Shown piece by piece: positions 1 through 50,110 of a DNA stretch of 55,305 nucleotides. The position numbers and the translations under genes are program-made. The DNA is from Pirellulales bacterium (lineage in GTDB: Bacteria; Planctomycetota; Planctomycetia; Pirellulales; UBA1268). The notes under the pieces were generated by a model that was not told where the DNA came from, made no database searches, and saw nothing but the letters and a program-made list of their open reading frames with translations. Location: contig JBIIIP010000003.1 in NCBI GenBank assembly GCA_044234625.1, forward strand, positions 1-55,305. Reading direction: 5' to 3'. Each line of letters starts with the position of its first letter. The stretch's first letter is position 1.

Positions 1-2500
1 CTGATCGGGAGGTCATGGCATAGAAGCGGGAAGCGGCGGGGGATGCCATGGGGGTCGGGTCCCGCACGATGCGGTTGCCCCGGCCGTCGATGATGAACCG
101 CTCGGTGGTCGAGGGGTCCGTCTTGGCACCGAGCGGCACGTGGCCGGATGGGCCGTCGAGATCGAGGACGATCTGCGGTTGGGCTTTCCCTTCGGTGACG
201 ACCGTCGTCCCGAACTGCCGGCCGTCGATCTCCATCCACAGAGGCGGGCCATCGGCCGTGGCCAGACAGGCGGGGGCGGCGTCGCCGCCGGTGTCGATGT
301 CGAGCAGGAGCACCGTGCACGGATCGGTGGCAGCGCCGAGAAAATGCAGCACGAGGCTGCCGTCGTGATCGCTCACGAGCCGGTTTGGCGCCGGCGTGGT
401 GCAGCCATTGCGGAGGGGGATGCCGGCGTCGGCCGGCGGCAGGCCCTCGCCCCACCGCTTCTCCACTGCCGCAAGATCGCTCGCGCTGAAAGCCACCCGC
501 GGGCTCCGCTCGATCAGGTCGGCGATCACCTGCGTCGACGTGGCTGCCGGAAAGTCGAAGGTCTGCCAGATGGTCGGGCCAAGCTGCCGGCTGTCGGCCA
601 GATGGATGGGCGTGCAGTAGCCCTGCAATTCCGCCTCGACCTCGGCGGGGCGGGCCACGGCGGCGATGGCATGGGCAAGCCTGTCGAGGAAGCGTTGCTG
701 CTCCGACTCCGGGCCGGGCTTCCGCAAGGCTTCCTGCATCTCCCTGACGGCGAACTCCGCATCGAGCAGTTGGTCGAGCGAGAAGGCTGGGCCCACGGCC
801 ATGTCGTATCGCTCGAGGGCGGCGGCCAGCCGCTGCCGCAGGGCGGCCTGGGCCCGCTCCTCCGGCCAGGAGGACGGGCCGCCGAGCCCCGGCGCAGCCG
901 CCGGGGCCGCTGCGGCCAGGCCGATCGCCTGGCGATGGTCGCGGCCCATGGACGTGAAGAGGCCGAGCAGGTCGTATTGATCCTTCACCCGCGAAGCCTT
1001 GTCGACGAGGTCGCGGCCGGCGAGTCGGCCTTGGGCCGGCCCATCGGCGGCAACGGCCGCGGCATCGTCGAGGGAATCGATCGCGGTGGCTTCGAGGGCC
1101 TGCGAAAGCTGAGCCAGGGCTGTGGAAGCGGTCTCTGGTGCAACGGTTCCGCCGTCGGGCACGTTGGCGAGCATGGCACGCAGCGGCCCGATGCCGGCCT
1201 GCAATTGCGACCATTCCGCAGACAGGCCCAGCACCTGCTGCTTTGCCGCCGTCGCCTTCTGGGCTTCTTCTGGACGGACCTGGGCGTAGTTGTCGTAGCC
1301 CCTCACGACGGAGGCAAGCACTTCGTCAAGCGTGGAGGGCGAGGCTTTTTTGGGCGGGTCTTTCAGCAAGGCGACGATCTTTCCGATGTCTGCCTTCACG
1401 CGGAGCGAGGCGCGGAGGCCGTCGGCCGACGCGAGGAGCCGTTGGATGATCAGCGACTCGCGTTCGGCGGTGGCGTCGGCGAGGACGCGGCGGAGATCGG
1501 CGACGAGACGTTCCGGGTCGATTCGCCACGGAGCCGGTGGGGATGCGGCGGTCTGCACCCGCAAAACCCGGGGACGCATGCGGGTCCACCGGGCCGCGGC
1601 GGCGTCGTAGTCGTAGACCACGGGCCGCAGGGCGTCGTCCTCGCCGGGCTCCATGGTGAGCAGGCCGCCTCCCATCACCACGTGCACCGGCCGGCCGGTG
1701 CCGTCAACGCCGCGGAGCCGACGGCCAGGAGCGAGAAACAGGCGGTAGAAGCCCAGATCGCCCAGCACGAAGCCATTGTCCGCAGCTTTGAGAAACGCCA
1801 CCGCCGCCTGCCACGGAAGAGGCTTGGCAACGATGCCGGCTTCAGGCTGGGCCTGGGTGAGGAGCTTTCCCCGAGCGCGGAGCGACGGACGGAGCGGCGC
1901 GGGCTCGAACGCTTCCGCGGGATCGGGAGTTGCGAGGAAGGCGGTCGCCACGATCGCCTCCACCTGGCAGGGGTCCGAGTCCACCGCCCGCTGCAGTGCG
2001 GCGCGCAGCTGCTCCGTTGGCACGGCATCGGACCGCGGGGCGACGGCCTTGGCGGCCTCCGCAGCCGCAAAGAGCTTCAGGGCGATATCCCCGAACACGG
2101 CCTCGCCCCGGGCGGGCTGCGAAAACGGCTGCCAGGCCGCGGCAAGCACCGCGCAGGCCTCGGCATACTTCATGGAGCCGACCAGCCCATCGGCCTTCAC
2201 GAGTGCGGCCCGGCCGGCAATCCAGCGCGAAGCGCCTCGGGCATCGTCGAGGAGAGCGAGCCGCTGTTTTCGGAGCCGCTCCACGGTGGCGAGATCACCG
2301 GACTTGCGGGCCGTCGCCGCCTCGGCATGCAGCGTGTCGAGCGCGGCCTGCAGATTCTCCCGCGGCGGTGCCGGGGCATCGGCCGCGTTTCCGGCGAGGG
2401 GGGCGACCGCAATCGCCGCGGTCACCGCCAACGCCATTCGCACGTTTCCAGGCATGAATTTCGAAACCGGACCCGCGACGGCAGGCTCTTCGCCGCTCAT
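1..2500 (-). CDS. Large hypothetical secreted protein, 3'-end cut by window edge (not present in supplied ORF track)
   Basis: Manual minus-strand translation from ATG 2500-2498 stays open to position 2. Frame was re-checked at in-frame ATGs 1675-1673, 1654-1652, 802-800, 235-233 and 16-14. N-terminus [43 protein letters not shown] is signal-peptide-like. The ATG overlaps the TGA of the upstream DUF1559 gene (ATGA). The plus-strand ORF 140..2569 is its antisense shadow. Confidence 0.7.
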
Positions 2501-3537
2501 GGAGCGGGGGTGGGCTGCCTGTCGTTCCGACTGCCGCGGCGGAGGTGCACCAAGCCATCCACGTCGTAGCCGATAGAGTGCGTGGAGCCGTCGGCCATGG
2601 ACATGATGAAGACGTTCGCATGCACCCCGCCGAAAACGGGATTCAGCAAGCCCGGCGTATCCTGGGTGGGAGGAAGGGGTGTCAGCACATTGGCGATCGA
2701 ATCGCCCGTCCAGGCGACGGTATCAAGGTCGCTGCCGGCAAACATGCTGCAGTCGTCGTTGAGATCGAGGCCCGTGTAGTAGTTGTTCGGATTCAGGTGC
2801 TTCTCACCCACGAGGTAGGTGCTGCTCAAACCATCGAACACGTGGGCGGCGCGAACCTCGCTGCGCTGGGCCACGACCCCGTTCGTGCCCGCCATGTCAA
2901 CGAAGCCGGTGGGAAAAAGGGAATTGCCTTCGGAACGCGTCGGGCCCACGCCCCACGTGATGCGCACGGCCCCGCCGTTCATCTTGTAGTCGGAGCGGTT
3001 GGTGGTGGTAGGCGCGGAGGAATTGCGCATCGTCAGGTTGTTCTTCGCGTACATGGGCGTCGGATGGCTGATGGCCTGGCGCCGGCTCGGGCAGGTGAAG
3101 ACCGGGAGCGGCGCGCGGCCGGTAAGCTCGGCGAGCCCCTCCTGTGTGGTGGTAATGCTCGCGGGATCGCCATCGGAGGCCATCATGAAGAGCGGCAGTT
3201 GCTCGATCGAGGGCAGGATGCTGAAGGCCCAACTGCCGGGCTGGTTTTTTCCGAAGCCACGGTCCGGGTCGCCGGCCCAACAATCGCCCCAGCCGCCGGA
3301 CGGATAAAAGCCCTGCTGGTCAAGATGCTGCAGGCAGCCCAGGGCGAGTTGCTTCACGTTGTTGGCACAGACGCTGCGCCGCGAGGCTTCGCGGGCCGCT
3401 TGCACAGTCGGAAGCAGCAGGGCCATGAGCATGCTGATGATCATGACCACCACGAGCAGCTCGATGAGCGTGAAGCCATAGCGAGTGCCGCGGCTGCCGT
3501 TATGCGATCGGCGCGGAATGTGCGGGATGGCTTTCAT
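2497..3537 (-). CDS. DUF1559 family protein with prepilin-type N-terminal cleavage/methylation domain
   Basis: N-terminus ..[36 protein letters not shown] (G|FTLIE prepilin motif). C-terminal [12 protein letters not shown] is an H-X9-DG signature. 4-nt start/stop overlaps on both sides. Confidence 0.9.
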
Positions 3538-4508
3538 TGGAACTCACTCTCATCGAGGACCGTGGTTGTGCCCCACACGCTGTACACGCTCGACGCCCCC
3601 AGGCCGCCGGCGGATGAGGTGGCATTGCGGTGGCTCCACGACAACAACTGCGCATACACCCGTCCGAGCAATGATTGTCGCAGAAAGCCCGTCCGGCCGT
3701 CGCAAAAGGCGGCGACGACGCCACCGGGGTGATTCGACGACGGCATGATGATCTGCCCGCCCGTGGTGTTGCCGATCCCCAGGCCGGTAGGGTTGATCAC
3801 CTGGGTGGACGTGGTGCTGGGCAAGCCGAACCCCGGCACGAAAAGCGCTGATGTAGCGTTTCCATTGGCGAACGTGAAAGCTCCGGTGCTTCCCGTGAAG
3901 TTGTTGTTCCAGAAACCTTGCACCAGGCCGGCCGTGCCGGTGATGCATTTCTCGGAAAGGATGAGCGTCATGGAGGTGCCGTCGCCGTTGGCAACGTCAT
4001 CCAGCGATACGCGGCCCGACGTGCTGCCGGACGTGAACGTGGTGTCTTGCATGACGCCGTCGAAGCGACGGAAATTGCTCGCGCTGCCACAGTTGCCCGC
4101 GTAGGCGAGCCATGGTCCGGTGGTCACATCGGGCGGGCTCGACGGGCAGATAAACAGCGAGAGATACGTCGTCATGGTGGTGTAGTTGCCGGGGAGCGAG
4201 CTGACGGACCGGTAAATGTCGTTGCGCTCGATGAAGGGCATGATCATCAGCGGCCAGCCAGGAGTCAGCGTCGCGCTCGAAAGAACGAGGGAGTTGCGCC
4301 ATCCCGGCAAGAAGCCGTTCGCCTCGTTGAACCGGTTCATGCCGAGGGCCAATTGATACTGGTTGTTCGAGCAGGCGACGCGGCGGCCGGCCTCGCGGGC
4401 CCCCTGCACGGCGGGCAGAAGCAGCCCCATCAGCACGCCGATGATGGCGACGACGACGAGCAGTTCCACGAGGGTGAAGCCCCGGCGGGAGGAGGCGATG
4501 CGGGTCAT
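3534..4508 (-). CDS. DUF1559 family protein with prepilin-type N-terminal domain
   Basis: N-terminus ..[37 protein letters not shown]-terminal [12 protein letters not shown] (H-X9-DG). Confidence 0.9.
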
Positions 4509-4530
4509 GGGGGTGCTCCAGAAAGGGTTC

Positions 4531-5901
4531 TCAATTCGTGAACGGCTGGCACACGGTCATCTGTCTGATTTCCCTACTCGTTGAATCATAGCAGCGGATT
4601 CGGATTTCAATCGCCCGCAAGGGCACGGCATAGGGCGGAGCCGTTTCATCCTCGGCGGAATCGTCGACGATATTGTTTCCATTACTGTCCACGCCGTCGG
4701 CGCCCTCGTCGATGGTGCCGTCTGCGTCGTCATCGACCCCGTTGGCCTCGTAGGCCGTCGTCCACGTGTCGTACGTGGCCGTGAGGCCGGAGCGGGCGTT
4801 GGCAACGCCGGTGAGGACAGATTGGGTCGAGAACGTACCGCTGGCGAGCAAGGTGAAGGCCGACGGAAGGCCGGTGCGTGCATTGCCTCCCAGATCAACG
4901 AAACAGCCCTTGAACGGGGCCGCGTTGGCGCCCAGGTTGGTGATCACGTTGTACCGGTAATCGGTGGGGTAGATGACCAGGCGATTTCCGGCCGGGTCAC
5001 TGATTTTCGCCCGTGCGTCGGGATCGAACACCCGGATGTCGAAGGCGATCACATTGGTGAGGATGATGTCCTCGCCTTCCCGTCCGCTGGCCGAGTCGAA
5101 CGTCAGACCGGTCGGAATGGTGGGGTGAGCCGGGAAAGGGCTCGCCCGATTGGGGCCATGAAAAAAACGGTTCTCCCTCAAGCCCAGGTCGGCGAGCGTG
5201 TTGGGCACGAGCGCGTTGGCCGCCGTCGAATCGGCCCGCAGGGAGATGTCGTAGGTGGTATAGGCCGCCGGCAGCGTGCCGGTGACCTGGTTGTTGTTTT
5301 CGAAAAACGGGCTTGCGCCGACGTAGCCCACGACGAGCAGCTGCCGCCGGTAGAGCGTGTGCAGCCGCAGCCCCGGCACCGGCTGAGTGGCTGAAGGCCG
5401 GCAAAACCAGGCTACTTCCGCCGTGGTTGACTCGATTTGTCCCGCGTCGAACTTGCCGGTGAAGGGGCTGGCCAGCGACCGCGTGGTGAAGAGCAGGGCG
5501 TCGTCGACGTCGGCGAGGAGCGACGACGTGCCTGTGGCCCACGAGGCAAGGCTGGAGACCACTATCAGATTCCCGTCCGCGTCGGTGGCGAAGGCGTCTT
5601 GCATCGGGCCCTCGACGATCTCGAAATAGCCCGACGCATTCTCCGCGGAAAGCGGCGGCACGAGCGGCGCAGTGGCGCCGCTAAGATCCTGCCGCAGCCG
5701 GCTGGCCGCCGACCGCATCCGGCCGGTCAGATCGACGATGGACTGGCTGTTCGTGGCCGTCCGGGTGAAGGCCCCCAGCAGGCTCGCGATGCCTGCCATC
5801 ACCATCAGCGCGATCGTCGACGCGATGAGCAGTTCCGTGAGCGTGAAGCCCGCTGGATGACGGTCGCGGCGGAGGGAGGATCGCATGGTCATGGGAGGCA
5901 A
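4531..5901 (-). CDS. Prepilin-type minor pseudopilin (GspJ/PulJ-like by position)
   Basis: 456-aa ORF. N-terminus ..HPAGFTLTELLIASTIALMVMAG carries the prepilin motif with Glu+5. It lies directly after the GspK-like gene. Confidence 0.65.
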   Translation of the reverse strand: MPPMTMRSSLRRDRHPAGFTLTELLIASTIALMVMAGIASLLGAFTRTATNSQSIVDLTGRMRSAASRLRQDLSGATAPLVPPLSAENASGYFEIVEGPMQDAFATDADGNLIVVSSLASWATGTSSLLADVDDALLFTTRSLASPFTGKFDAGQIESTTAEVAWFCRPSATQPVPGLRLHTLYRRQLLVVGYVGASPFFENNNQVTGTLPAAYTTYDISLRADSTAANALVPNTLADLGLRENRFFHGPNRASPFPAHPTIPTGLTFDSASGREGEDIILTNVIAFDIRVFDPDARAKISDPAGNRLVIYPTDYRYNVITNLGANAAPFKGCFVDLGGNARTGLPSAFTLLASGTFSTQSVLTGVANARSGLTATYDTWTTAYEANGVDDDADGTIDEGADGVDSNGNNIVDDSAEDETAPPYAVPLRAIEIRIRCYDSTSREIRQMTVCQPFTN

Positions 5902-5905
5902 CAGG

Positions 5906-8900
5906 TCAATCGAGGTAGCGCTTCAGCCGGATCGTCTCACGGACGTTGAGGTCGAGGTTGGGGCTGTAGCCGACAGGAATCGAGCGGTCGACGATCGCGA
6001 ACAACCGCCTGGTGACCGGCGACGGGGCATTCGGCGAGTCGTCGGTGATCCGGACGGTGATCCAGACGGCGAACACGTTGGACTGCACCGTGGCCGTGTT
6101 GGCGAGGCGGATGGCCTGCGCGTAGGAAAAAAACGGGTTTTTGTCGCGAGGGAAGATCACCGCGCCCGACACGGTCGTGAACGTGCCGGTGACGATCGGC
6201 TGGCCGGAAGCGCCGCTCAGGGAAAGCATCTCGGCAAGCGAGTCGGCCGGCACGCCGCTGTCGGTGGATGGAATCGCCGGGATGGCAGGAATCGCGGGCC
6301 TGTCGCTGGTGGCGGGCTGGGCCGGCACCGCGGGGATCGTCTTGCTCCTCGGAATGAAAGGGTTGATTACGTAGGTATTGCCGAGAAGCGTGTTCCACAC
6401 GGCTTCGTCGAGCGATGGTGACGTGGGGGATCCAGGATTCGATGCCGGGGCGACGGTGTTGACGTTCACCCGCCCCGGCTCCCGCCACTTCGAAAAGTGA
6501 TTGGCTCCGAGTTTGTCGAGACCGAAGGAGTTGATCGACGTGCCGGGGATCGACACCGTGTTTCCCGCGAACCGCGACGGCACGAACGTGGCGTCGAGAA
6601 TCAGCGCGCCCAGCGTCGTCGTCGAACTATTGACGATGATCTGGTTGGTGCTCGAGGCTAGGGAATTGATGGGGAAGGAATAGGAGGCGAGAATGCCGTC
6701 GGTGCTCGTCGTGCCGGTGGGGACCATCGCCAGTTCCGCCTGGCTGATGAAGGGGCGGTTGGGCCAGTGGAACCATGCCACGGGGTTTGTGCCGCTGACG
6801 GCCGGGTAAACGCCCATGGTGGTGCCGGACTGGGAAATCCAGGGTGACGGCTGACGCCAGAATCTGGCCAGCGAGTCTGTCGTCGAGGCATCGCTCGGGC
6901 CGGCACGGCGGTTTTTTGGCCGTGGAGGCGGTGTGACGGACAGATCTGGAACCGACGCCACCACTGCCGTGTCAACGACGATGTAGGGGTTGGAGGCACT
7001 GTTGGCCTGGCTCGGGTCGGCGAGCCTTTCGAGGGAAACCGTTCCGCTTGACGCGGGGGCTGCGCCCGTCCAAAGGCGGAATCCCGCTGAAGAAGTGGAG
7101 CTGATCTGGAGCGTCGGGATTCCTGTGGCGAGGTACTCCCGCGTATTGGTCGAGGATACGCAAAGGTAAGACCCCGTTCCGCTTGTGGCGAGCCCGGTGG
7201 GCGGGGTCGCAGTCGGTGAGCTCAAGACGACGGTGGTGGCCGAGGTCACGGCCGTGCCGACGAGCCTGAACTGCGGAGTGCCGGTAGCCGCGGAAGCGGT
7301 GCCGCGGTCGAGCCGCGCTGCGGTGCCGCTCGAAAGCCGCAACTGCCAGCCGGCGAGCGACAGTGTGCCCGACGTTGCAAATGGACTCGTCTCCACCGTG
7401 CCCGACACGGTTGGAGAGCCGCCGGAGCCGTCCCAGAGCAGGGCTTGGGTCGCCGGACGGTGCAGGGTGACGAACAACTGGGCGGTCGAGGGCGTGAACC
7501 CGACGCCAGGCCTCCTCCAAGCGGCGGTTTCCACGATGACCACGTCGGGGCGTTCGGCGCCGTAGACGACCGGCGGAGAGCTCGTCACCGACCATCCGTC
7601 CGCGAGATTCGTGTCGTACGAAAAGGCGGTCATGATGGAATCGGCGTCACGAAAATCAAGGACGTTCACGGCCCACTGGGCCGCCTGGTTCGCGTCGGTC
7701 GCGCCGAGAGCCATCACGAGCGTGTAGAGACCCTTGCAGAATTCCTGCTTTTGAGCGGCGGTCTCCACCGGCCGGTTGATGTTGAACCGCAGGCCGGCGG
7801 CGATGTCGGGTGACATGACGTTGCTGCCGCCCGTCCATGTCGCGGCGTTGGCGAAAGGGATCGACGCGGCCATGTAGTCTTCGAGCGCCCGTGCCGCCAG
7901 GCCCGTCAGGCCGGGGGTCGACCAACTGTCGGTAGTGATCGTCATTCGGCTCCGCTGGGCCACGCCCTCGAGTCCGGCCGCCAGCCGTTGCGGCAGGTGC
8001 GTGGCGTCGGGGTCGTTGGGCCGGAGGACGCGCTCGAGCTCCGCCAACGTGAAGGGGTTGTCGTCGTTTCCGGTGGCCCCCACGGCCGGTCGCCGCTGGA
8101 CGCTCCATCGCGGTGCGTCGGTGTCGAGGCGGGCCTCATAGGGGTCGTCCACGGCGTCAGCGCCGGCTGATCCGACCCAGGTCGGGCGGTAGAAATTGAG
8201 CGTAGGCGTGACCTGCCCCTGCGCGATCTGGGCGGCCGTCGGACTGGTCATGTAGACCCGGGTCTGCGCCTTGAGGTCGGCGACGGCATTGTTTCCCGCC
8301 AGCGTCAGTCCGTAGAGCGAGTCGGTGAAGCCGGTCGCGGCGACGCCGGCCGTGGTCTGCTGGTTGCCGACGGAATCGTCGCCCGACACACCGGGAAGTC
8401 CACCCGATCCGTAGCGGCCGTCGATCGGGCCGACGAGCGGCGGGGCGCGGCGTTGCGCCGACGTCGGTGACGAAGGCGTGGTGTCGGGAGTGCCGCTGAG
8501 CAGCAACTGCCGCCATACATTCGTGAAGGCGTAGGTGCCCGATACCGTGGGGAGCGTGGGCGGAAGAACCAATTGCGCGTTGACGTCGGCGGGGCCGTAT
8601 CCCATGCCGAGGGGGGTATTCGGCGTGCCGGCGTAACTCCCCTGCTGCATCGCCACGCCGGAGGTGTTCACGTTGATCCGGCCATCGAGGTCGAGGATCA
8701 AATACGACACCTCGCACCGCAGCATGCCACCGAGTGGTGAAGGCTGATCGGGAACGACGTTCGAAAGCCACACCCCGTCGAGCACGCCGTCGTTGTCGTT
8801 GTCGACGGTGGCGGTGCTGCCTGAGCCGACGAAGGAAAGCCGGCCGAATTCCTTGACTTGGCCATTGTCGATCACTGGCTGCGCGAGCCACAGGTTCGCG

Positions 8901-9541: not shown

Positions 9542-9553
9542 GGGGATGAGCCG

Positions 9554-12539: not shown

Positions 12540-13861
12540 GACAGATCCTGGATCAGCTTGATGAGCGGCAGGAAGAGGGCGATCACGATGAAGCCCACGG
12601 CACCGCCGAGGAAGATGATCAAGAGCGGCTCCATGAGGCTCGTCAGGCTCTCCGTGAGCACCGCCACTTCCTCGTCGTAGTTGTCGGCCACCTTGTAGAG
12701 CATCGTGTCGAGTTCGCCCGACTCCTCGCCGACGTCAACCATGTTCACCACGAGATCGTCGACGACGGGCTTCTTGTAGCGGGTGAGATAGAGCAGGGCT
12801 CCGATCCCCGGCACGAAGACCGTCCAAAACATGGCCGCCACGAGGTTCAGGGGAGGCACCGCGTAGGTCTTCAAGGGCTTCGCGATCGCTTCGCCATCGC
12901 GGATCGATTCGCTGACCTTCGTCAGCAGGTGCTCGAACATCATGTTGCCGGAGGTTTCCTTCGTGATGTTCAACGCCTCGAGGATCGGCACACCCGATGC
13001 CAAGAGCGTGCCCAGGGTGCGGGCGCTGCGCGACATGATGTTTTTCTCGACCAGCTGGCCGAAAATCGGCATCTTCAGCGTGAACAGGTCCCAGCCGAAG
13101 CGGCCGTAGGGGACGAGCGTGATCGCCTTGATGATCAGGCGGACGCCGAAGGGAATCGCCGGAATCAAGAACCACCAGTTCGACACCCAGGTGGAGATGT
13201 CGATGAGCAGTTCCGTCATCGGGGGCAGTTTGCTGCCGAAGTCGTCGAAGATCTTTTTGAACTGCGGCACGATCTTCATCATGATGAACGTGAGGATGCC
13301 GACGGCCACGCATACCACGACGACCGGATAGACCAGCGCCCCCTTGACCTTCCGCCGCAGGGCCTGGCTGCGCTCCATGAATTCGGCGAGCCGCCGCAGG
13401 ATCACTTCCAGGGCGCCGCCCGCCTCGCCGGCCCGGATCATGTTGCAATAGAGGCGGTCGAACGCCTTCGGGCTTTTCGCCATCGCCTCCGAGAGCGTGG
13501 CGCCCCCTTCGATCTCCTCGCACACGTCGAGGAGGCTGTTTTTCAGCTTCCCGGGCTTTTGCATCTCCGCCAGAACCTTGAGGCTGCGGAGGATCGGCAG
13601 GCCGGCGTCCTGGAGGATCGACAATTGGCGGGTGAAGAGGGTGACTTCCTTGACCTTCACCTTGCCGAAGGCGAACGACCGTTTCTTCTTCCGCGCATCC
13701 CCTGCCTTGGCCGCCTTCACCTTGGCCGCCTTGAGCTTCGTCACCATGAAGCCACGGGAGCGGATGGTGGACTGGGCTTCGTCTTCGGTCGCCGCCTCGA
13801 TCGTGTCCTTGATCTCCTTGCCGGTGGCGACGTCGATGGCTTCGAACTGGTAGGTGGGCAT
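12536..13861 (-). CDS. gspF: Type II secretion / type IV pilus platform protein GspF/PilC family
   Basis: MPTYQFEAIDVATGKEIKDTIEAATEDEAQSTIRSRGFMV is a typical PilC/GspF N-terminus. The domain is duplicated and carries TM segments. ATG 13861 is preferred over the upstream GTG 13894, which sits inside a repeat copy. Confidence 0.9.
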   Translation of the reverse strand: MPTYQFEAIDVATGKEIKDTIEAATEDEAQSTIRSRGFMVTKLKAAKVKAAKAGDARKKKRSFAFGKVKVKEVTLFTRQLSILQDAGLPILRSLKVLAEMQKPGKLKNSLLDVCEEIEGGATLSEAMAKSPKAFDRLYCNMIRAGEAGGALEVILRRLAEFMERSQALRRKVKGALVYPVVVVCVAVGILTFIMMKIVPQFKKIFDDFGSKLPPMTELLIDISTWVSNWWFLIPAIPFGVRLIIKAITLVPYGRFGWDLFTLKMPIFGQLVEKNIMSRSARTLGTLLASGVPILEALNITKETSGNMMFEHLLTKVSESIRDGEAIAKPLKTYAVPPLNLVAAMFWTVFVPGIGALLYLTRYKKPVVDDLVVNMVDVGEESGELDTMLYKVADNYDEEVAVLTESLTSLMEPLLIIFLGGAVGFIVIALFLPLIKLIQDLS

Positions 13862-13908
13862 GTTTCTCTCGATAGGCCGGAGGCCCGTCGCCACGTTGTG
13901 GAGTGTGA

Positions 13909-15627
13909 TCAGGCGTCGAGGATGGTTTCGCGGATGACTTCTTCCGCCGTTGTCAGGCCGTTGAAAATGCCGAGCATGCCGGAATCGCGGAGCGTGATCA
14001 TGCCGTGCCGGCGGGCGAGCTCGCGCAGGTCTTCGGTCGATGCATTCCGCATCACCAGGTCGCGCAACTCGTCGTTGATCACCATCAGCTCGTAGAGGCC
14101 GAGGCGGCCCTTGTAGCCGGTGTGGTTGCAGCGGTCGCAGCCCTTGCCGCGGTAGAATTTCTTGCCCACGACCTGGTCGCTCGTGAGCTCCAGGTCGGCC
14201 AGGATGTCGGCCCCGGGGATGATCTCCTCCCGGCAGTTGGAGCAGATCCGCCGCACCAACCGCTGGGCCAGCACGGCCTCCACCGTGGCCGTGATGAGGA
14301 ACGGCGGCACTCCCATGTCGCGGAGCCGCGTGACCGTGGAGGGGGCGTCGTTGGTGTGGAGCGTGGAAAACACCATGTGCCCCGTGAGCGAGGCCTGCAC
14401 GGCTATTTCCGCCGTCTCCACGTCGCGGATCTCGCCCACCAGGATGCGATCCGGATCCTGTCGGAGGATCGACCGGAGGGCATTGGCGAACGTGTTGCCG
14501 ATCTCGGCGTCGATGGGCACCTGCACGATCCCGTCGATGTCGTACTCGACCGGGTCTTCCGTGGTGATCAGCTTGTCTTCCACGTCGTTGAGCTCGGAAA
14601 GCGCCGAGTAGAGCGTGGTCGTCTTCCCGGAGCCCGTCGGGCCCGTCACCAGCACGATCCCGTTGGGCCGGCGGATGATCTCGCGGAACCGACGGAGGAT
14701 CTCCTTGTCCATCCCCAGCTTGTCGAGATCGAGCGACACCACGCCCCGGTCGAGCACCCGCATCACCACGCTCTCCCCGAACAGCGTGGGGAGCACGCTC
14801 ACGCGGAGGTCGACCGGATGGCCGCCCACCGAGAGCTCGATGCGGCCGTCCTGCGGGAGCCGCCGCTCGGCGATGTCGAGATTCGCCATCACCTTGATGC
14901 GGGTGGTGATCGCAAACGCCAGATGCTTCGGCGGCGGCACCATCTCCTGGAGCACGCCATCAGCCTTGAGGCGGATGCGAAACTCCTTTTCAAAGGGCTC
15001 GAAATGGATGTCGCTGGCACCGTCGCGGATCGCCAACAGGAGCACCATGTTGAGCAGCTTTCGAACCGGGGCGCTTTCGGCCAGCGCCTCCACGCTCGCC
15101 AGCTCCGTGGGCCCTTCCCGGCCGGCCGCCGCGGCAGCGGCGGCGAGCTCGTCGTCTTGCTCCAGATCCTCGACCAGCGATTCCACGCTCTCGGATTCGG
15201 CCGAATAGGCCTTCTGCAGAACCTTTCCGATCTCCGACTCCGTGGCCACCACCATGTGGATGTCGTAGCCGAGCAGCACCCGCAATTCGTCGGCGATCTG
15301 GATCTTCTGGGGCTCGGCCGTGGCGATCGTGAGCCGCGTGCCATCGAACTCGATCGGCACCACGCGGTAGAGCTGCGCCATGGGCTCGCTGATCAGGCGG
15401 AGCGTTTCCGAGTCGATTTGCCGGTCATAGAGCGTGACGAACGTGGTGTTCCACTGCTCCGCCAGGGCCTCGCCCAGCTGCTCCTCGGAAAAGAAGCCGA
15501 GCGACAGGCCCACCTTGCCGAGGAGCTCACCGCCGCGGTTGGTCTGCTCCTCGAGCATGGTGGCGAGTTGCAGCTCGTCGACGAGGCCGAGATCGATGAG
15601 GATTTTGCCGAGACGCTTGAGGGCCAT
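13909..15627 (-). CDS. gspE: GspE/PilB/MshE-type secretion ATPase with MshEN-like N-domain
   Basis: Walker A GPTGSGKTTTLYS. Asp/His boxes present. C-terminal CxxC..CxxC (CSNC...CDRC). N-terminal RLGKILIDLGLVDELQLATMLEEQ motif. Confidence 0.92.
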   Translation of the reverse strand: MALKRLGKILIDLGLVDELQLATMLEEQTNRGGELLGKVGLSLGFFSEEQLGEALAEQWNTTFVTLYDRQIDSETLRLISEPMAQLYRVVPIEFDGTRLTIATAEPQKIQIADELRVLLGYDIHMVVATESEIGKVLQKAYSAESESVESLVEDLEQDDELAAAAAAAGREGPTELASVEALAESAPVRKLLNMVLLLAIRDGASDIHFEPFEKEFRIRLKADGVLQEMVPPPKHLAFAITTRIKVMANLDIAERRLPQDGRIELSVGGHPVDLRVSVLPTLFGESVVMRVLDRGVVSLDLDKLGMDKEILRRFREIIRRPNGIVLVTGPTGSGKTTTLYSALSELNDVEDKLITTEDPVEYDIDGIVQVPIDAEIGNTFANALRSILRQDPDRILVGEIRDVETAEIAVQASLTGHMVFSTLHTNDAPSTVTRLRDMGVPPFLITATVEAVLAQRLVRRICSNCREEIIPGADILADLELTSDQVVGKKFYRGKGCDRCNHTGYKGRLGLYELMVINDELRDLVMRNASTEDLRELARRHGMITLRDSGMLGIFNGLTTAEEVIRETILDA

Positions 15628-15636
15628 TGTTCTTCA

Positions 15637-15691
15637 GGCAGGCCGGAGGCCTGCCCCAGGTTTTGCTTTCAGGCAGGCCGGTGCGCCTGCC
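15637..15691. repeat. Two GC-rich hairpins between pilT stop and gspE start (variants of the window-wide palindrome family)
   Basis: GGCAGGCC-GGA-GGCCTGCC (15637-15655) and GGCAGGC-CGGTGC-GCCTGCC (15672-15691), read directly. Confidence 0.7.
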
Positions 15692-15698
15692 GCGTGTG

Positions 15699-17216
15699 TC
15701 ACTCTTCGGGGTGGGAGATCGCGGGCTTCTCCAGAATCCCTTGCTTCGCGTTGGCGATCCGCTGGGCGAGGTCGCTCGGGCTGGCGCTCTTCGCCAGCAC
15801 ATCTTCCTCGGTCACCTTCTTCTCGTTCCAGAGACGGAAGAGCTGGTCGTCGAGGAGCTGCATCCCGAGTTTTGCGCCGGTCTGGATCGCGGACGTGATG
15901 CGGAAGGTCTTGTTTTCGCGGATCAGGTTTCCAATCGCCGGCGTGCAGACGAGGATCTCGAAGGCAGCCACCCGGCCGCCGCCGATCTTGGGCAGCAGCG
16001 TCTGCGACAACACGCCGATGATCGCGGTGGAAAGCTGCGTCCGCACCTGCTCCTGCTGGTTGGTGGGGAAGGCGTCGATGATGCGGTTCACCGTGCCCTG
16101 GGCGCCCGTCGTGTGCAGCGTGCCGAACACCACGTGGCCCGTTTCCGCAGCCGAGATCGCCGCTTCGATCGTCTCCAGGTCGCGAAGCTCGCCCACGAGG
16201 ATCACGTCGGGATCCTGCCGCAGGGCGCGGCGCAGCGCCTCGGAGAAACTCGGCACGTCGGTGCCGATCTCGCGCTGGTTGACCGTGCTCTTTTTCGACT
16301 TGTGATAGAACTCGATCGGGTCTTCGATCGTGATGATGTGGTGATCGTAATTCGTGTTGATGAAGTCGATGAGGGCGGCGAGCGTGGTGCTCTTGCCCGA
16401 TCCGGTGGGGCCGGTCACGAGAAACAGGCCACGTGGCCGGGTGGCCATCTGTTTGCAGACCTCGGGCACGCCGAGCTGTTCGGGCGTGAGCAGCTTGTTG
16501 GGGATCTGCCGCAGCACCATCGCGATAGAGCCGCGCTGCTTGAAGACGCTGACGCGAAACCGGGCCCTGTCGCCGAACGCGAAGCCGAAGTCAGAGCCCC
16601 CCTTTTCCGCGAGCTCGAGCTGGCAGCGCTCCGGCGTGATCGCCTTCATCAGGCCGTTGGTGTCGTCTGCGGTGAGGACTTTCGTGTTTTGTGGCCGCAT
16701 GTGACCGTCGATGCGGAACACCGGCGGCAGGCCGACGGTGATGTGGATGTCCGACACGCCGTTGGAGACGGCGGCATTGAGCAGTTTGTCGATGTGGATG
16801 TTGCCCGTGGCCACGCGCGGCACGACGGCGGGCTCGGCGGCGGCCGACTCCTCCCGGGCGGCCGGGGCGTCCGTGGAGAGATCCAGCTCCAGCGGGGGCG
16901 GCGTTGGGGGAGCCAGCGGCTTGATGATCAGCACGCGTGTGCCTTGCACGTCGTGCAGGGCGCCGGCGAACGTGCCCAGGCCGCACTCGAACTCGAAGGC
17001 TTGGAGATTGGCGTTGGACGGGGCCACGGCCTGGGCCATGGCCAGCACCTCCTCGGCCGGGATGGCCTTCGTTTTGAGGGGCCGCAACTGACCGCCGATG
17101 TTCAGCATCGGGGCCACGCCACCGGAGAGGCGCAGTTCCTTGGCGCCGTTGTCGGAGGCCACCTTGAGCAGCTTTTCGACCTGGGCGGCCAAGGGTGAGG
17201 GAGCGGCCGTGCTCAT
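15699..17216 (-). CDS. pilT: PilT-family retraction ATPase with extra N-terminal domain (506 aa)
   Basis: GPTGSGKSTTLAA Walker A, plus GELRDLETI and GTLHT blocks typical of PilT. Start assigned to ATG 17216 (MSTAAPSPL..). The longer track ORF up to 17729 runs through an intergenic repeat region. Confidence 0.88.
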   Translation of the reverse strand: MSTAAPSPLAAQVEKLLKVASDNGAKELRLSGGVAPMLNIGGQLRPLKTKAIPAEEVLAMAQAVAPSNANLQAFEFECGLGTFAGALHDVQGTRVLIIKPLAPPTPPPLELDLSTDAPAAREESAAAEPAVVPRVATGNIHIDKLLNAAVSNGVSDIHITVGLPPVFRIDGHMRPQNTKVLTADDTNGLMKAITPERCQLELAEKGGSDFGFAFGDRARFRVSVFKQRGSIAMVLRQIPNKLLTPEQLGVPEVCKQMATRPRGLFLVTGPTGSGKSTTLAALIDFINTNYDHHIITIEDPIEFYHKSKKSTVNQREIGTDVPSFSEALRRALRQDPDVILVGELRDLETIEAAISAAETGHVVFGTLHTTGAQGTVNRIIDAFPTNQQEQVRTQLSTAIIGVLSQTLLPKIGGGRVAAFEILVCTPAIGNLIRENKTFRITSAIQTGAKLGMQLLDDQLFRLWNEKKVTEEDVLAKSASPSDLAQRIANAKQGILEKPAISHPEE

Positions 17217-17381
17217 GGGAGAGACACCTTGATTGAGTGAAGGACCCTTCAACCAATCATATTGTGCCGCTGCCGGAGAAACGCGCACAAGCAGGGGGGC
17301 AGCGGGAGAGGCGAATCCGCCCACGTCGAGAATTTCCTGCCGGCCGGGCGGGCCCCTGACAGCCGCCGACCGAACATTTTG

Positions 17382-17410
17382 ATTATGCGCTGCATCGGCA
17401 GAAAAGTCAC
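17382..17410 (-). promoter_or_regulatory. Candidate sigma70-like promoter upstream of pilT (GTGACT-N17-CATAAT)
   Basis: Minus strand reads GTGACT (17410-17405), a 17-nt spacer, then CATAAT (17387-17382), in the least GC-rich part of a 404-bp intergenic gap. The promoter consensus of this lineage is not known to me. Confidence 0.2.
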
Positions 17411-17534
17411 CCATTCCATACGAAAAAAAGCCGGTCAGGCCGAAAAGGGGGCCGGAGGGACAGAGGCCAGCCACTTGGCATGCGGCGGGGAGTGCGGTCG
17501 CAGGGCGATGAGTTTTTCGTGAGCCAAGCAGGCA

Positions 17535-17600
17535 GACAGACCGGAGGCCTATCCCACGTTGGGCAGGGCAGGGCGGAGGCCTATCCCACTTTCGGCAGGC
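17535..17600. repeat. Degenerate copies of the palindromic repeat family
   Basis: GACAGACCGGAGGCCTATCCCACGTTGGG followed by GCGGAGGCCTATCCCACTTTCGG. Confidence 0.6.
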
Positions 17601-17620
17601 GGGCCCGGCTACCTCCCGGC

Positions 17621-19327
17621 CTACTCCTCGACCCGCTTGGAAACGCGGAACACCTCGTCGAGCGTGGTGATGCCGCGGAGAGCCTTGGCCACGCCGTCGT
17701 TGAACATCACCTTCATTCCCTGGCTGCACGCCGCCCGGCGGATTTCCTGGGTGGGAGCCCCCTGGAAGGCCAGTTCACGAATTTTGGTCGTCATCACCAT
17801 CAGTTCGAAGATGCCCAGCCGGCCCTTGTAGCCCGATTTCTGGCAGTTCACGCAGCCGCGGCCCTTCATGAACGTCGCTCCCTTGAGCATTTCGGGGGTG
17901 ATGCCCGCCGCCTCGATCTGGGTGTCGAGAGGCTCATGGGGCTGCTTGCACTTCGGACAGTTCACGCGGATCAGTCGCTGGGCCAGCACGGCGATCACGC
18001 TGGAAGCCACCAGATACGCCGGCACGCCCATGTCGATCATGCGCGTGATGGCACCCGGGGCGTCGTTGGTGTGGAGCGTGGAAAACACGAGATGGCCTGT
18101 GAGCGAGGCCTGGATGCCCATCTGGGCCGTTTCCGTGTCGCGCATTTCCCCCACGAGGATCACGTTGGGGGCCTGCCGCAGCATTGCGCGGATGACGCGG
18201 GCAAAATCGAGCCCGATCGAGTGCTTGATCTCCACCTGGTTGATGCCCGTGAGGTAATACTCCACCGGGTCCTCGGCGGTGATGATCTTCGTGTCCGGGC
18301 GGTTCAGTTCGTTGAGCGACGCGTAGAGCGTCGTCGTCTTGCCGGAACCGGTGGGCCCGGTGACGAGGATGATGCCGTTGGGGCGACGGATGAGATTCTT
18401 GAACTGGCGGAAATCGCCTTCCGACAGCCCCAGTTGGCGGATGCCGACGCGGATGTTGTCTTTGTCGAGAATCCGCATCACCACCGACTGGCCGTGGTTG
18501 GTGGGCAGGACCGACACGCGGAGGTCGTAGTCCTTGCCGTCGGCCGTGAGTTTGATGCGGCCGTCCTGCGGCCGCCGCCGCTCGGCGATGTCGAGCTTGG
18601 CGAGGATCTTGATGCGGGAGAGAATCGCGCCGAGCAGCCGCCGCGGCGGATTGTCGCGCTCCACCAGCCGCCCGTCGATGCGGTAACGGATGCGAACACG
18701 GTCTTCGAAGGGCTCGATATGGATGTCGCTGGCCCGGAGCTGCACCGCCTCCGTGATGATGAGGTTCACGAGTTTCACCACCGGCGCGTCCGACGTCTCC
18801 TCCTGCTGCTGGTTGGCCTGCTGCTCGACGGCCGTTTCCGTGAAGTCGATGGCGGTGTCGGTGAACTCCTGCAGCATCGAGTCGGCGCTCTCGCCCTCGC
18901 CCGTGCCGTAGTGGCGATTGATCGCCTCCACGATCTGCTCCCGCGACGCGATCGCCAAGGCGATCTCGCGGTTGAGGATGAAGCGGAGCTTCTCCTGCGT
19001 GTCGATGTCGGTGGGGTCGCTGGTGGCGATCTGTAGGGCCGAGCCCTGCTCGGCGAGCGGGAAGATCGTGTTTTCGCGGGCCACGCTCTCGGGCAGCAGC
19101 CCCACGATCTCGTGCGACACCTCGATCCGCCCCAGGTCGATGAAATCGAGCCGATGCGCCTTGGCCAGCGCCTTCATCACCGTCTCGCCGGGTGCATAGC
19201 CCAGCCGCACGACCTCGTCATGGACGCGCTTGCCCGACGAGGTGGCGAGGCGGTGGGCCTCGGCCAGTTGCTCGGCGCTGACGATCCCCTCGTTGAGGAG
19301 GAGTGTGGAAAACGGATCGGTGGGCAT
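17621..19327 (-). CDS. pilB: Second GspE/PilB-type secretion/pilus assembly ATPase
   Basis: Walker A GPTGSGKTTTLYA. CPKC...CVNC tetracysteine. N-terminal T2SSE_N-like segment. Start assigned to ATG 19327 (MPTDPFSTLLL..), because the track ORF extension overlaps the cupin gene. Confidence 0.9.
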   Translation of the reverse strand: MPTDPFSTLLLNEGIVSAEQLAEAHRLATSSGKRVHDEVVRLGYAPGETVMKALAKAHRLDFIDLGRIEVSHEIVGLLPESVARENTIFPLAEQGSALQIATSDPTDIDTQEKLRFILNREIALAIASREQIVEAINRHYGTGEGESADSMLQEFTDTAIDFTETAVEQQANQQQEETSDAPVVKLVNLIITEAVQLRASDIHIEPFEDRVRIRYRIDGRLVERDNPPRRLLGAILSRIKILAKLDIAERRRPQDGRIKLTADGKDYDLRVSVLPTNHGQSVVMRILDKDNIRVGIRQLGLSEGDFRQFKNLIRRPNGIILVTGPTGSGKTTTLYASLNELNRPDTKIITAEDPVEYYLTGINQVEIKHSIGLDFARVIRAMLRQAPNVILVGEMRDTETAQMGIQASLTGHLVFSTLHTNDAPGAITRMIDMGVPAYLVASSVIAVLAQRLIRVNCPKCKQPHEPLDTQIEAAGITPEMLKGATFMKGRGCVNCQKSGYKGRLGIFELMVMTTKIRELAFQGAPTQEIRRAACSQGMKVMFNDGVAKALRGITTLDEVFRVSKRVEE

Positions 19328-32643: not shown

Positions 32644-32672
32644 TTGCCTCTTCGACGTCCCCCCAAAATAAT
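32644..32672 (+). promoter_or_regulatory. Candidate promoter for the rhodopsin gene (TTGCCT-N17-AATAAT)
   Basis: TTGCCT at 32644-32649, a 17-nt spacer, then AATAAT at 32667-32672, about 130 nt upstream of ATG 32803. Confidence 0.25.
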
Positions 32673-32802
32673 GCTCGCGAGCACGCACGCCTTCCGCCAT
32701 TCCCGGCGCTGGCTGCGCTGGCTGCGACCGAATGTGTTTCGGTCGTGGGGTGTTTTTGTCACGAGTCGGCTGCATCGCACGCCGGTCCTTCTGGAGGTTT
32801 TC

Positions 32803-45754: not shown

Positions 45755-45770
45755 TGGTACATTTCCGCCC

Positions 45771-49907: not shown

Positions 49908-50110
49908 GGCGGGGGGCTTCCTTTGTTGACGATGGGGGCCGCGTGCCGATAGTATCAAAGATGCCAAGGGCATGTGATCGAGAGGCACGCGGCAGGATTT
50001 CGGGCGGGATATCCATATCTCTTCAACCGTTCGCGCCCGGGATTTTTCCGCACGCCCCTCTTGGTCACCGATTGATCGATCTTATTTTTTCATTTTTTCA
50101 TAGGTGCCTT

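What the first reader, a model, noticed from the sequence alone, without database searches (positions are those of the whole stretch)
1..19327. 19-kb co-directional T2SS/T4P-like gene string with three ATPases, all-oversized pseudopilins, DUF1559 genes and no secretin
Transcription order on the minus strand is PilB-like, PilT-like, GspE/MshE-like, GspF, GspG-like, three minor pseudopilins, a GspK-like giant, a GspJ-like protein, two DUF1559 proteins and a large secreted protein. Five junctions are 4-nt start/stop overlaps (12536-12539, 11643-11646, 10675-10678, 3534-3537, 2497-2500), which implies translational coupling. An extension ATPase pair plus a retraction ATPase alongside a GspG-K type pseudopilin set mixes T4P and T2SS hallmarks. 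No secretin (GspD/PilQ), prepilin peptidase, GspC/L/M or PilM/N/O is recognisable anywhere in the window. The layout links the hugely expanded, functionally unassigned planctomycetal DUF1559 family directly to a dedicated assembly machine.
Basis: partly seen in the sequence, partly recalled or inferred. Interest (0 to 1): 0.68.

Follow-up and report, generated by a model that had tools for sequence, protein, structure and literature searches.

The report
Planctomycete type IV filament operon
This is a conserved planctomycete operon for the motor (two assembly ATPases, one retraction ATPase, a membrane platform) and seven oversized pilin-like subunits of a type IV pilus / type II secretion-like machine; it looks like the locus reported as essential in Planctopirus limnophila, and it gives one branch of the unexplained DUF1559 family a candidate assembly machine.

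Summary
There are 12 co-directional minus-strand genes, not 13, and all five 4-nt overlaps are present. They encode two 43%-identical PilB/GspE-family ATPases, a PilT-family ATPase with a duplicated N-domain, and a PilC/GspF platform. Then come three large prepilins (298, 323 and 374 aa), a 1211-aa protein with a GspK-style N-terminus lacking Glu5, a 453-aa prepilin, two DUF1559 prepilins and a non-conserved 900-aa protein. No secretin, prepilin peptidase, GspC/L/M or PilM/N/O lies in the window or in the 7.5 kb beyond it that I could read. The order PilB-PilT-PilB2-PilC-pilins-giant recurs in dozens of Planctomycetota loci. In Pirellulales-type loci a specific DUF1559 orthologue is a fixed member; in more distant lineages it is absent. 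The G/H/I/J/K labels are not supported: HMM, profile and fold searches match only the N-terminal pilin helix. The layout matches P. limnophila Plim_0410-0401, which is Tn-seq essential, but sequence orthology was not tested. Best reading: the core and subunit operon of a retractile, planctomycete-specific type IV filament machine whose other parts are encoded elsewhere. It is a new variant of a known kind, and moderately to highly interesting.

The parts
17621..19327 (-). Assembly ATPase 1 (PilB/GspE family, 568 aa) with an N-terminal MshEN domain
   Evidence: Pfam T2SSE 446 bits and MshEN 81 bits. NCBIfam PilB 627 bits against GspE 604, both below their cut-offs.
17205..17620 (-). 416-bp intergenic gap holding the only sigma-70-like promoter match of the 20-kb region (17410-17382)
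   Evidence: The PilB-to-PilT gap exceeds 100 bp in 12 of 12 related loci. No Rfam family matches here.
15699..17204 (-). PilT-family retraction ATPase (501 aa) with a duplicated PilT N-terminal domain
   Evidence: TIGR01420 pilT_fam 470 bits against a cut-off of 319, over residues 138-477. Residues 12-99 are 30% identical to the following N-domain, E 2e-13.
13909..15627 (-). Assembly ATPase 2 (PilB/GspE family, 572 aa) with MshEN and a c-di-GMP-binding motif
   Evidence: T2SSE 464 bits and MshEN 65 bits. PilB 636 bits, GspE 619; NF053729 c-di-GMP motif 38.6 bits against a cut-off of 38. 43% identical to ATPase 1.
12536..13861 (-). Inner-membrane platform protein PilC/GspF (441 aa; alternative GTG start at 13894)
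   Evidence: Pfam T2SSF twice, 204 bits. GspF 378 bits, PilC 345 and 339, all below equivalog cut-offs.
11643..12539 (-). Prepilin-type protein pp298 (G|FTLTE signal), candidate major or GspG-like subunit with an invariant DxDxDG acidic loop
   Evidence: N_methyl 27 bits. GspG model matches only residues 8-56. Invariant D173/D175/D177/E181/W186 in 19 orthologues. The GspG-like C-terminal motifs seen by eye are not significant.
10675..11646 (-). Prepilin-type protein pp323 (A|FTLIE signal), minor-pilin-like
   Evidence: N_methyl 24 bits. Weak N-terminal hits to GspH and ComGD. Orthologues found in 41 loci.
9554..10678 (-). Prepilin-type protein pp374 (G|FSLLE signal), minor-pilin-like
   Evidence: N_methyl 21.8 bits. 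The class III signal is conserved in 29 orthologues. No PDB sequence match.
5906..9541 (-). Giant 1211-aa protein with a pilin-like N-terminal helix lacking Glu5 (RRG|LLLLIVVL) and an invariant VDNDNDGxxDG loop; presumed tip or cap subunit
   Evidence: No Pfam or NCBIfam family. AF2 model has pLDDT 81 and pTM 0.87, with a helix over residues 8-68 of the model. No significant PDB fold match. The family has 4546 representative clusters. It sits in the same operon position in all loci.
4531..5892 (-). Prepilin-type protein pp453 (G|FTLTE signal) with an acidic DxDxDG-rich C-terminal region
   Evidence: N_methyl 24.5 bits. 48 orthologues with many invariant residues. PDB matches cover the N-terminus only.
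3534..4508 (-). DUF1559/H-X9-DG prepilin 'DUFa' (324 aa), the conserved cluster-associated orthologue
   Evidence: PF07596 85 bits, N_methyl 33 bits. TIGR04294 21.3 bits against a cut-off of 19. 40-55% identical orthologues follow pp453 in 41 loci. AF2 pLDDT 89, helix 13-64. Only the helix matches PDB pilins.
2497..3537 (-). Second DUF1559 prepilin 'DUFb' (346 aa), a lineage-specific addition with a 4-nt overlap on each side
   Evidence: PF07596 112 bits. Only 30% identical to DUFa. Not a constant member of related loci.
1..2500 (-). First 833 aa of a 900-aa Ala-rich protein with a signal-like N-terminus; overlaps DUFb by 4 nt and runs off the window
   Evidence: The full gene is in L001:11038-13740. 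No Pfam or NCBIfam family. Not conserved in related clusters.

Best explanation
The string is the core-and-subunit operon of a Planctomycetota-specific type IV filament machine. It is closest in logic to a retractile type IVa pilus and carries some type II secretion flavour.

Shown:
- Two paralogous PilB/GspE hexameric ATPases with MshEN-type N-domains, one of which has a c-di-GMP-binding motif.
- A PilT-family ATPase.
- A PilC/GspF platform.
- Six proteins with class III (prepilin) signal peptides, and one giant with a Glu5-less pilin-type N-terminal helix.

Inferred:
- A prepilin peptidase encoded elsewhere cleaves the prepilins.
- The four proteins pp323, pp374, giant and pp453 form the priming or tip complex. 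They play the part of GspH-I-J-K or FimU-PilVWX, and the giant is the cap.
- pp298 and/or the cluster's own DUF1559 pilin polymerise beneath that complex, driven by the PilB pair on the platform.
- PilT disassembles the fibre.
- PilM-type alignment proteins and any outer-membrane channel are encoded at other loci.

The locus appears to be the same type as P. limnophila Plim_0410-0401, where transposon sequencing scored nine of the ten genes as essential.
For: Domain content.

Class III signals with Gly/Ala-1, Phe+1 and Glu+5 are conserved in every orthologue family.

The order PilB-PilT-PilB2-PilC-pp298-pp323-pp374-giant-pp453-DUF1559 recurs in the related Planctomycetota loci that carry enough flank. 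Junctions are tight from PilT onward, and the pp298/pp323 4-nt overlap is present in 32 of 39 loci.

The core PilB-PilT-PilB2-PilC-four pilins-giant is also present in two closed or near-closed Mariniblastus-like genomes.

The giant and DUFa fold confidently, each with a long N-terminal pilin-type helix.

P. limnophila has the same order: E, twitching-motility protein, E, F, then six planctomycete-only hypotheticals. All are essential except PilT, which is 'unclear'. A PilM gene and its two neighbours at another locus are also essential (PMC10632474).
Against: No prepilin peptidase, PilM/N/O, GspL/M/C or secretin was seen in the window, in the 7.5 kb beyond it, or in 1.1 Mb of related loci. 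The one exception is a secretin in L064. The machine is therefore incomplete as observed, and the rest is assumed.

The globular parts of every pilin-like protein lack detectable similarity to any solved pilin or pseudopilin, so the tip-complex roles are positional guesses.

Which protein is the major subunit is unknown.

Orthology to the P. limnophila locus rests on gene order, annotation and gene lengths derived from insertion indices, not on a sequence comparison.

No expression data could be found.
Confidence: 0.6

Rival explanations
1. It is an ordinary type II secretion system whose GspD, GspC, GspL, GspM and GspO genes simply lie elsewhere. A short periplasmic pseudopilus of the GspG-like pp298, capped by an H-I-J-K set, pushes folded exoproteins through a secretin.
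For: GspF is the best platform model, at 378 bits. pp298 shows GspG-like motifs by eye (DAWGSPI, SPGPDG, ADNITN) and an acidic calcium-type loop. The giant has a GspK-style N-terminus without Glu5. Public annotation calls these genes T2SS (PMC10632474). A secretin lies 4.6 kb from the cluster in L064.
Against: A PilT-family ATPase sits inside the operon and scores well above its cut-off; classical T2SS lack one. No model reaches a GspE, GspF or GspG equivalog cut-off. The GspG motif match is not significant, at 5% probability. T2SSK and GspH/I/J models do not hit. No secretin lies near the cluster in any other related locus searched. In P. limnophila the two annotated secretins are non-essential while this locus is essential.
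Confidence: 0.15
2. It is a secretin-independent endopilus. The filament works inside the enlarged planctomycetal periplasm, or through a non-secretin outer-membrane structure such as the crateriform complex, and that role is why it is essential.
For: No secretin lies in or near the cluster in nearly all loci. In P. limnophila the ATPases, the platform, the six unknown proteins and PilM are essential, while both annotated secretins are dispensable. Crateriform structures link the two membranes and carry 12-nm fibres (PMC5394234).
Against: A missing neighbour gene says nothing about genome-wide absence. Secretins do exist in the phylum, and one is adjacent in L064. Divergent secretins may be unannotated in P. 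limnophila. No direct data exist.
Confidence: 0.15
3. The DUF1559 genes are passengers. Members of a hugely expanded family happen to sit next to a pilus operon and have no functional tie to it.
For: A third DUF1559 gene lies 45 kb away. P. limnophila has 68 paralogues scattered around its genome. DUFb is not conserved in the cluster. The Mariniblastus-like clusters lack a DUF1559 gene.
Against: DUFa forms its own orthologue group ([19 protein letters not shown] and [15 protein letters not shown] motifs; 40-55% identity against 30% to paralogues). It lies 31-100 bp downstream of pp453 in 32 of 41 loci. It has a canonical class III signal that needs a type IV filament machine.
Confidence: 0.1

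Closest known systems
Type IVa pilus systems (PilB-PilT-PilC core with FimU-PilVWX-PilY1-PilE minor pilins; pilB-pilT-pilC clusters of cyanobacteria, Thermus and clostridia)
   Same: An extension ATPase, a PilT retraction ATPase above its family cut-off, a PilC-type platform, and a run of prepilins that includes one without Glu5. Peptidase, PilMNO and secretin are not in the same operon. In P. limnophila a PilM gene is co-essential.
   Different: There are two paralogous extension ATPases in one operon, and PilT has a duplicated N-domain. Every pilin is two to eight times the usual size. No PilY1 beta-propeller is present; a 1211-aa pilin-like giant takes its place. No model reaches the PilB or PilC equivalog cut-offs. 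The globular domains have no match among solved pilins.
Type II secretion system (GspC-O)
   Same: GspE/GspF-family motor. A first pilin with GspG-like N-terminal 50 residues and acidic loop. Five consecutive pilin-like genes, one of them large and lacking Glu5 as GspK does.
   Different: PilT is present. No GspC, D, L, M or O is nearby. The GspG/H/I/J/K HMMs match only the N-terminal helix, and T2SSK does not match. The order is giant before the 453-aa protein, whereas T2SS has J before K.
Planctopirus limnophila locus Plim_0410-Plim_0401 (Rivas-Marin et al. 2023, PMC10632474)
   Same: Same order: T2SS E, twitching-motility protein, T2SS E, T2SS F-type protein, then six planctomycete-restricted hypotheticals. 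The first gene lies outside the predicted operon, which matches the gap and promoter-like site after PilB here. Gene lengths inferred from insertion indices are about 352, 370, 360 and 468 aa, one unknown, and about 1599 aa. They resemble the prepilins plus giant(s) of the related loci L071 and L085.
   Different: Sequence orthology was not tested. Those authors did not recognise the six proteins as pilin-like. The P. limnophila PilT is about 371 aa, with no N-domain duplication. The tail of the cluster differs, possibly with two giants and no DUF1559.
MSHA pilus ATPase MshE and other MshEN-domain ATPases
   Same: Both extension ATPases carry MshEN. ATPase 2 just reaches the c-di-GMP-binding motif model (38.6 bits against 38).
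   Different: c-di-GMP binding is untested. No other Msh components are present.
Verrucomicrobial 'Verru_Chthon cassette' proteins A-D (TIGR02596-02600)
   Same: A cassette from the same PVC (Planctomycetes-Verrucomicrobia-Chlamydiae) superphylum, made of several prepilin-type proteins plus a very large one.
   Different: Only the N-terminal helices hit, at 15-28 bits against cut-offs of 70-256. The giant hits no NCBIfam model at all.

Membership tests
Type IV filament (T4F) superfamily machine | PilB/GspE-family assembly ATPase | tested here: met
   Two genes, T2SSE 446 and 464 bits.
Type IV filament (T4F) superfamily machine | Polytopic PilC/GspF platform protein | tested here: met
   T2SSF twice, 204 bits.
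Type IV filament (T4F) superfamily machine | Subunits with a class III signal peptide (G/A-1, hydrophobic helix, Glu+5) | tested here: met
   N_methyl or TIGR02532 in six proteins. The motif is conserved in the orthologue alignments.
Type IV filament (T4F) superfamily machine | Dedicated prepilin peptidase (A24) | not testable with these tools
   Absent from the window, from +7.5 kb and from the related loci. The rest of the genome could not be searched. P. limnophila has A24 genes elsewhere.
Type IVa pilus | PilT-family retraction ATPase | tested here: met
   TIGR01420 470 bits against a cut-off of 319.
Type IVa pilus | PilB and PilC equivalogs | tested here: not met
   PilB 627 and 636 bits against a cut-off of 676. 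PilC 345 and 339 against 700.
Type IVa pilus | PilMNOP alignment complex and PilQ secretin | not testable with these tools
   Not in the window or the related loci. Genome-wide search was not possible. PilM is essential at another locus in P. limnophila.
Type IVa pilus | PilY1-type beta-propeller tip protein | tested here: not met
   No Pfam hit on the giant or any other gene. The fold search finds no propeller.
Type II secretion system | GspD secretin together with GspC, GspL and GspM | tested here: not met
   None in the window, +7.5 kb, or 1.1 Mb of related loci, apart from one secretin in L064. This covers the locus only; genome-wide status is unknown.
Type II secretion system | GspE, GspF and GspG equivalogs | tested here: not met
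   GspE 604 and 619 bits against 630. GspF 378 against 424. GspG 24.7 against 88.9, N-terminus only.
Type II secretion system | Minor pseudopilins GspH, I, J, K recognisable by sequence or fold | tested here: not met
   NCBIfam and Pfam hit only the N-terminal helices. PDB profile searches and hhalign against E. coli GspG-K and PpdA-C match the N-terminus only. Foldseek on the giant finds nothing.
Type II secretion system | No retraction ATPase | tested here: not met
   PilT is encoded inside the operon and is conserved there.
DUF1559 / H-X9-DG prepilin family (PF07596, TIGR04294) | N-terminal prepilin motif plus the DUF1559 domain above the gathering score | tested here: met
   112 and 85 bits against a cut-off of 23.3 for 2497-3537 and 3534-4508. 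H-X9-DG 21.3 bits against 19 for DUFa.
Verru_Chthon cassette (TIGR02596-02600) | Scores above the subfamily cut-offs for proteins A-D | tested here: not met
   15-28 bits against cut-offs of 70-256, N-terminus only. The giant has no hit.
P. limnophila essential locus Plim_0410-0401 | Sequence orthology of each gene | not tested
   Only order, annotation and derived lengths were compared.

The most novel reading that the evidence does not exclude
This operon builds the thick (about 12 nm) pili-like fibres that emerge from planctomycetal crateriform structures. The oversized pilins would explain the fibre diameter. The giant caps the fibre, and the genome's expanded DUF1559 repertoire supplies interchangeable ligand-binding subunits. 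PilT retraction then reels captured macromolecules into the enlarged periplasm through a non-secretin outer-membrane complex, and that role makes the machine essential.
Probability: 0.15. Interest if true: 0.85.

Novelty: new variant of a known kind. Interest (0 to 1): 0.6.

Why it matters
Planctomycetes carry tens to hundreds of DUF1559 prepilin-type genes of unknown function, and they make fibres from crateriform structures whose components are still described as unknown in a 2025 review (PMC12673574). A phylum-wide conserved filament operon that appears to be essential in the model species would bear on both puzzles. In one large lineage it also contains its own DUF1559 orthologue. Together these point to concrete genes to deplete, tag and image. 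It would also be a rare case of a type IV filament machine required for viability. The giant and the DUF1559 head domains fold confidently yet have no solved structural relatives.

Tried and rejected
- Rfam scan of the whole window: only one tRNA, and nothing in the PilB-PilT gap.
- RNA-seq evidence for the operon: no RNA runs hold the sequence, only lake-water DNA runs.
- PDB sequence-profile searches with orthologue alignments of pp298, pp323, pp374, pp453, DUF1559 and the giant: N-terminal helix matches only, or nothing.
- hhalign of the five profiles against E. coli GspG-K and PpdA-C: N-terminus only, and not discriminating.
- hhalign of pp298 against the GspG C-terminus: 5% probability. 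The GspG and GspK motif resemblances that I saw by eye therefore remain leads, not tests.
- Foldseek of confident AF2 models of the giant and DUFa against the PDB: no significant hits.
- The RES-domain hit on the giant (18 bits, below cut-off) was rejected as spurious.
- The 900-aa and 533-aa downstream proteins match no family and are not conserved with the cluster, so I treat them as accessory.
- Naming an organism for giant homologues through cluster look-up returned no names.
- A search aimed at reaching P. limnophila through the L071 giant reached Mariniblastus-like genomes instead.

Full report
**What is in the sequence**

ORF listing and translation show twelve consecutive minus-strand genes between position 1 and 19327. 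In transcription order they are:
- a 568-aa ATPase (17621-19327);
- a 416-bp gap;
- a 501-aa ATPase (15699-17204);
- a 572-aa ATPase (13909-15627);
- a 441-aa membrane protein (12536-13861);
- proteins of 298 aa (11643-12539), 323 aa (10675-11646), 374 aa (9554-10678), 1211 aa (5906-9541), 453 aa (4531-5892), 324 aa (3534-4508) and 346 aa (2497-3537);
- an ORF that runs off the window start.

The window is part of a 121.8-kb lake-water metagenome contig. Its closest named relatives are freshwater Pirellulales metagenome-assembled genomes.

**Annotation**

- The first and third ATPases each carry MshEN plus T2SSE. Both score the PilB model (627 and 636 bits) slightly above GspE (604 and 619), and both fall below the curated cut-offs. 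They are 43% identical to each other.
- The second of these paralogues just reaches the c-di-GMP-binding motif model (38.6 bits against 38).
- The middle ATPase is a clear PilT-family member (470 bits against a cut-off of 319). Its first ~100 residues duplicate the PilT N-domain.
- The membrane protein is PilC/GspF.
- Six of the following proteins have the prepilin methylation motif. Their N-termini read G/A|F-T/S-L-x-E.
- The 1211-aa protein instead has RRG|LLLLIVVLML with no Glu5, which is the pattern of GspK or PilX (read directly from the sequence).
- The last two prepilins are DUF1559/H-X9-DG proteins (112 and 85 bits).
- Only two prepilins, not three, lie between the first one and the giant.

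**Surroundings**

Upstream of the first ATPase lie a cupin, MsrB and a cyclophilin. The rest of the window is housekeeping: LigA, GlnE, MiaB-like, Fmt, Def, ScpB, the CCA-adding enzyme and S1, plus a rhodopsin/Blh pair and a third DUF1559 gene at 49943-51100.

Beyond the window start, the source contig shows the 900-aa gene and a 533-aa gene with no family match. After them come opposite-strand oxidoreductase and MarC genes, so the cluster ends there. No secretin, A24 peptidase, GspC/L/M or PilM/N/O is present anywhere in this stretch.

**Conservation**

Homologues of the giant are all 'hypothetical protein' with no Pfam domain. A profile search finds 4546 representative clusters. A pattern scan of one genome per species returned 76 loci, almost all Planctomycetota.

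I searched all six-frame ORFs of those loci with the window proteins. The loci that carry enough flank show the order PilB-PilT-PilB2-PilC-pp298-pp323-pp374-giant-pp453-DUF1559.

Junction statistics come from approximate start calls:
- the PilB-PilT gap exceeds 100 bp in 12 of 12 loci;
- the pp298/pp323 4-nt overlap is present in 32 of 39 loci;
- pp453 is followed by DUFa within 100 bp in 34 of 41 loci.

The only promoter-like match in the 20-kb region lies in the PilB-PilT gap.

The DUF1559 gene next to pp453 is a distinct orthologue group. It is 40-55% identical across loci, against about 30% to the second DUF1559 gene and to the distant paralogue. The second DUF1559 gene and the 900-aa and 533-aa proteins are not conserved members.

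In more distant lineages the cluster is PilB-PilT-PilB2-PilC, four prepilin-like genes and a 1550-1745-aa giant, and it then stops with no DUF1559 gene. These are the Mariniblastus-like loci L071, L085 and L086; L085 and L086 come from 6.2-Mb and 4.0-Mb contigs.

So the core is phylum-wide, and the DUF1559 link is specific to the Pirellulales-type branch.

**Missing parts**

I searched all ORFs of the window and loci (1.1 Mb) with E. coli GspD, GspO, GspL, GspM, GspC and HofM-Q. The only hit was one secretin, in L064, 4.6 kb downstream and convergent. Pfam confirmed it at 82 bits.

A Pfam scan of 53 flanking ORFs gave DUF3050, EF-G and TPR proteins as the recurrent neighbours. That output lists only the 25 commonest families. 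Single-sequence searches are also weak for PilN, PilO and GspL/M. Absence from neighbourhoods is therefore well supported, but absence from genomes is not tested.

**Are the G/H/I/J/K labels right?**

- NCBIfam and Pfam models for GspG, GspH, ComG and PilV hit only the first 30-60 residues and stay far below their cut-offs. T2SSK and GspI/J/K do not hit.
- Profiles built from 19-20 orthologues of each protein match only the alpha-1 helix of solved pilins.
- hhalign against E. coli GspG-K and PpdA-C does not discriminate between the families.
- By eye, pp298 has GspG-like motifs (DAWGSPI, SPGPDG, ADNITN). The giant has GspK-like ones (LDLDGRINVN, NVLDFRDADS, WPNRPFISQAEL). The one formal test gave 5% probability, so these stay leads.
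- AlphaFold models are confident: giant pLDDT 81 and pTM 0.87, DUFa pLDDT 89. Both begin with a 50-60-residue helix as pilins do.
- Foldseek against the PDB finds nothing significant for the giant. For DUFa it finds only the helix of type IV pilins, at E of 0.26 or worse.

The proteins are therefore pilin-like with novel head domains. Their roles as a tip or priming set are inferred from gene position and from the Glu5-less N-terminus of the giant.

**Literature**

Rivas-Marin et al. 2023 (PMC10632474) describe the P. limnophila locus Plim_0410-0401. It reads T2SS E, twitching-motility protein, T2SS E, a T2SS protein, then six planctomycete-restricted hypotheticals. [quoted passage not shown]

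Their tables score all ten genes essential except PilT, which is 'unclear'. They also list PilM (Plim_0076) and its two neighbours as essential, an A24 peptidase as 'unclear', and both annotated secretins as non-essential.

Gene lengths back-calculated from the insertion indices are about 352, 370, 360 and 468 aa, one unknown, and about 1599 aa. They fit the pattern of four prepilins plus giant(s) seen in L071 and L085. I could not obtain the P. limnophila sequence, so orthology is inferred rather than shown.

Boedeker et al. 2017 (PMC5394234) saw 12-nm dextran-binding fibres on large crateriform structures. A 2025 review still calls the players unknown (PMC12673574).

**Mechanism and verdict**

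The best-supported reading is a retractile type IV filament machine specific to Planctomycetota. The window encodes its cytoplasmic motor, its platform and its full subunit set. The peptidase, the alignment proteins and any outer-membrane channel are encoded elsewhere.

It shares PilT and, in P. limnophila, PilM with type IVa pili. Its pilin-gene run is loosely T2SS-like. It meets the equivalog criteria of neither system.

The 'no secretin' point is weak evidence on its own, and the pseudopilin names are unsupported. The DUF1559 link is real but restricted to certain lineages.

I rate it a new variant of a known kind. Interest is 0.6, mainly because of the likely essentiality, the two extension ATPases, the uniformly oversized and structurally novel subunits, and the testable link to DUF1559 proteins and crateriform fibres.

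Noticed in passing
window 32644-33549 (+) and 33709-34767 (+): A bacteriorhodopsin-like gene (PF01036, 148 bits) lies next to a beta-carotene 15,15'-dioxygenase (Blh, PF15461), forming a light-driven pump and retinal-synthesis pair in a freshwater Pirellulales genome. Helix C reads RYVDWLFTTPLLLVK. Aligned from memory to bacteriorhodopsin, that places Lys at the proton-donor position (a 'DTK'-like motif), which is unusual.
   Followed up: partly
window 49943-51100 (+): A third DUF1559 prepilin gene (113 bits) lies 45 kb from the cluster among housekeeping genes. Most family members are therefore unlinked to the machine.
   Followed up: partly
window 15699-17204 (-), residues 1-104: The PilT-family ATPase carries a tandem duplicate of its own N-terminal domain (30% identity, E 2e-13). 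The P. limnophila and Mariniblastus-like PilT proteins (about 371-375 aa) lack it.
   Followed up: partly
window 11643-12539, 5906-9541 and 4531-5892 (-): Invariant acidic DxDxDG calcium-type loops occur in three subunits: GDQDNDGMPEF in pp298, VDNDNDGVLDG in the giant, and DDDADGTIDEGADGVDSNGNNIVDD in pp453. They recall the calcium sites of GspG and PilY1.
   Followed up: no
L006:20220-23681, L015:8418-13766, L056:1-6808: Some relatives carry a second tandem copy of the pp298/pp323/pp374/giant module next to the first, which suggests exchangeable tip sets.
   Followed up: no
L064:22312-25074 (-): A 921-aa secretin (PF00263, 82 bits) lies 4.6 kb downstream of the cluster, convergent to it, in one distant Pirellulales genome. 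It is the only secretin found in 1.1 Mb of related loci.
   Followed up: partly
related loci, directly downstream of the DUF1559 gene (e.g. L014:8149-9060, L019:15877-16818): A DUF3050 / haem-oxygenase-like gene recurs on the same strand just after the cluster (12 of 53 flanking ORFs). It is absent from the window.
   Followed up: no
L046, L048, L049, L054, L064, L071 and L075, between PilC and the pp298 homologue: More distant lineages insert an extra ~300-aa prepilin with a DUF1559-like N-terminus directly after PilC. It may be their major subunit.
   Followed up: no
window 45705-46661 (+): A stand-alone N6/N4 DNA methyltransferase (PF01555, 172 bits) sits between a peptidase and a sugar-phosphate isomerase-like gene. 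No restriction partner was noticed.
   Followed up: no
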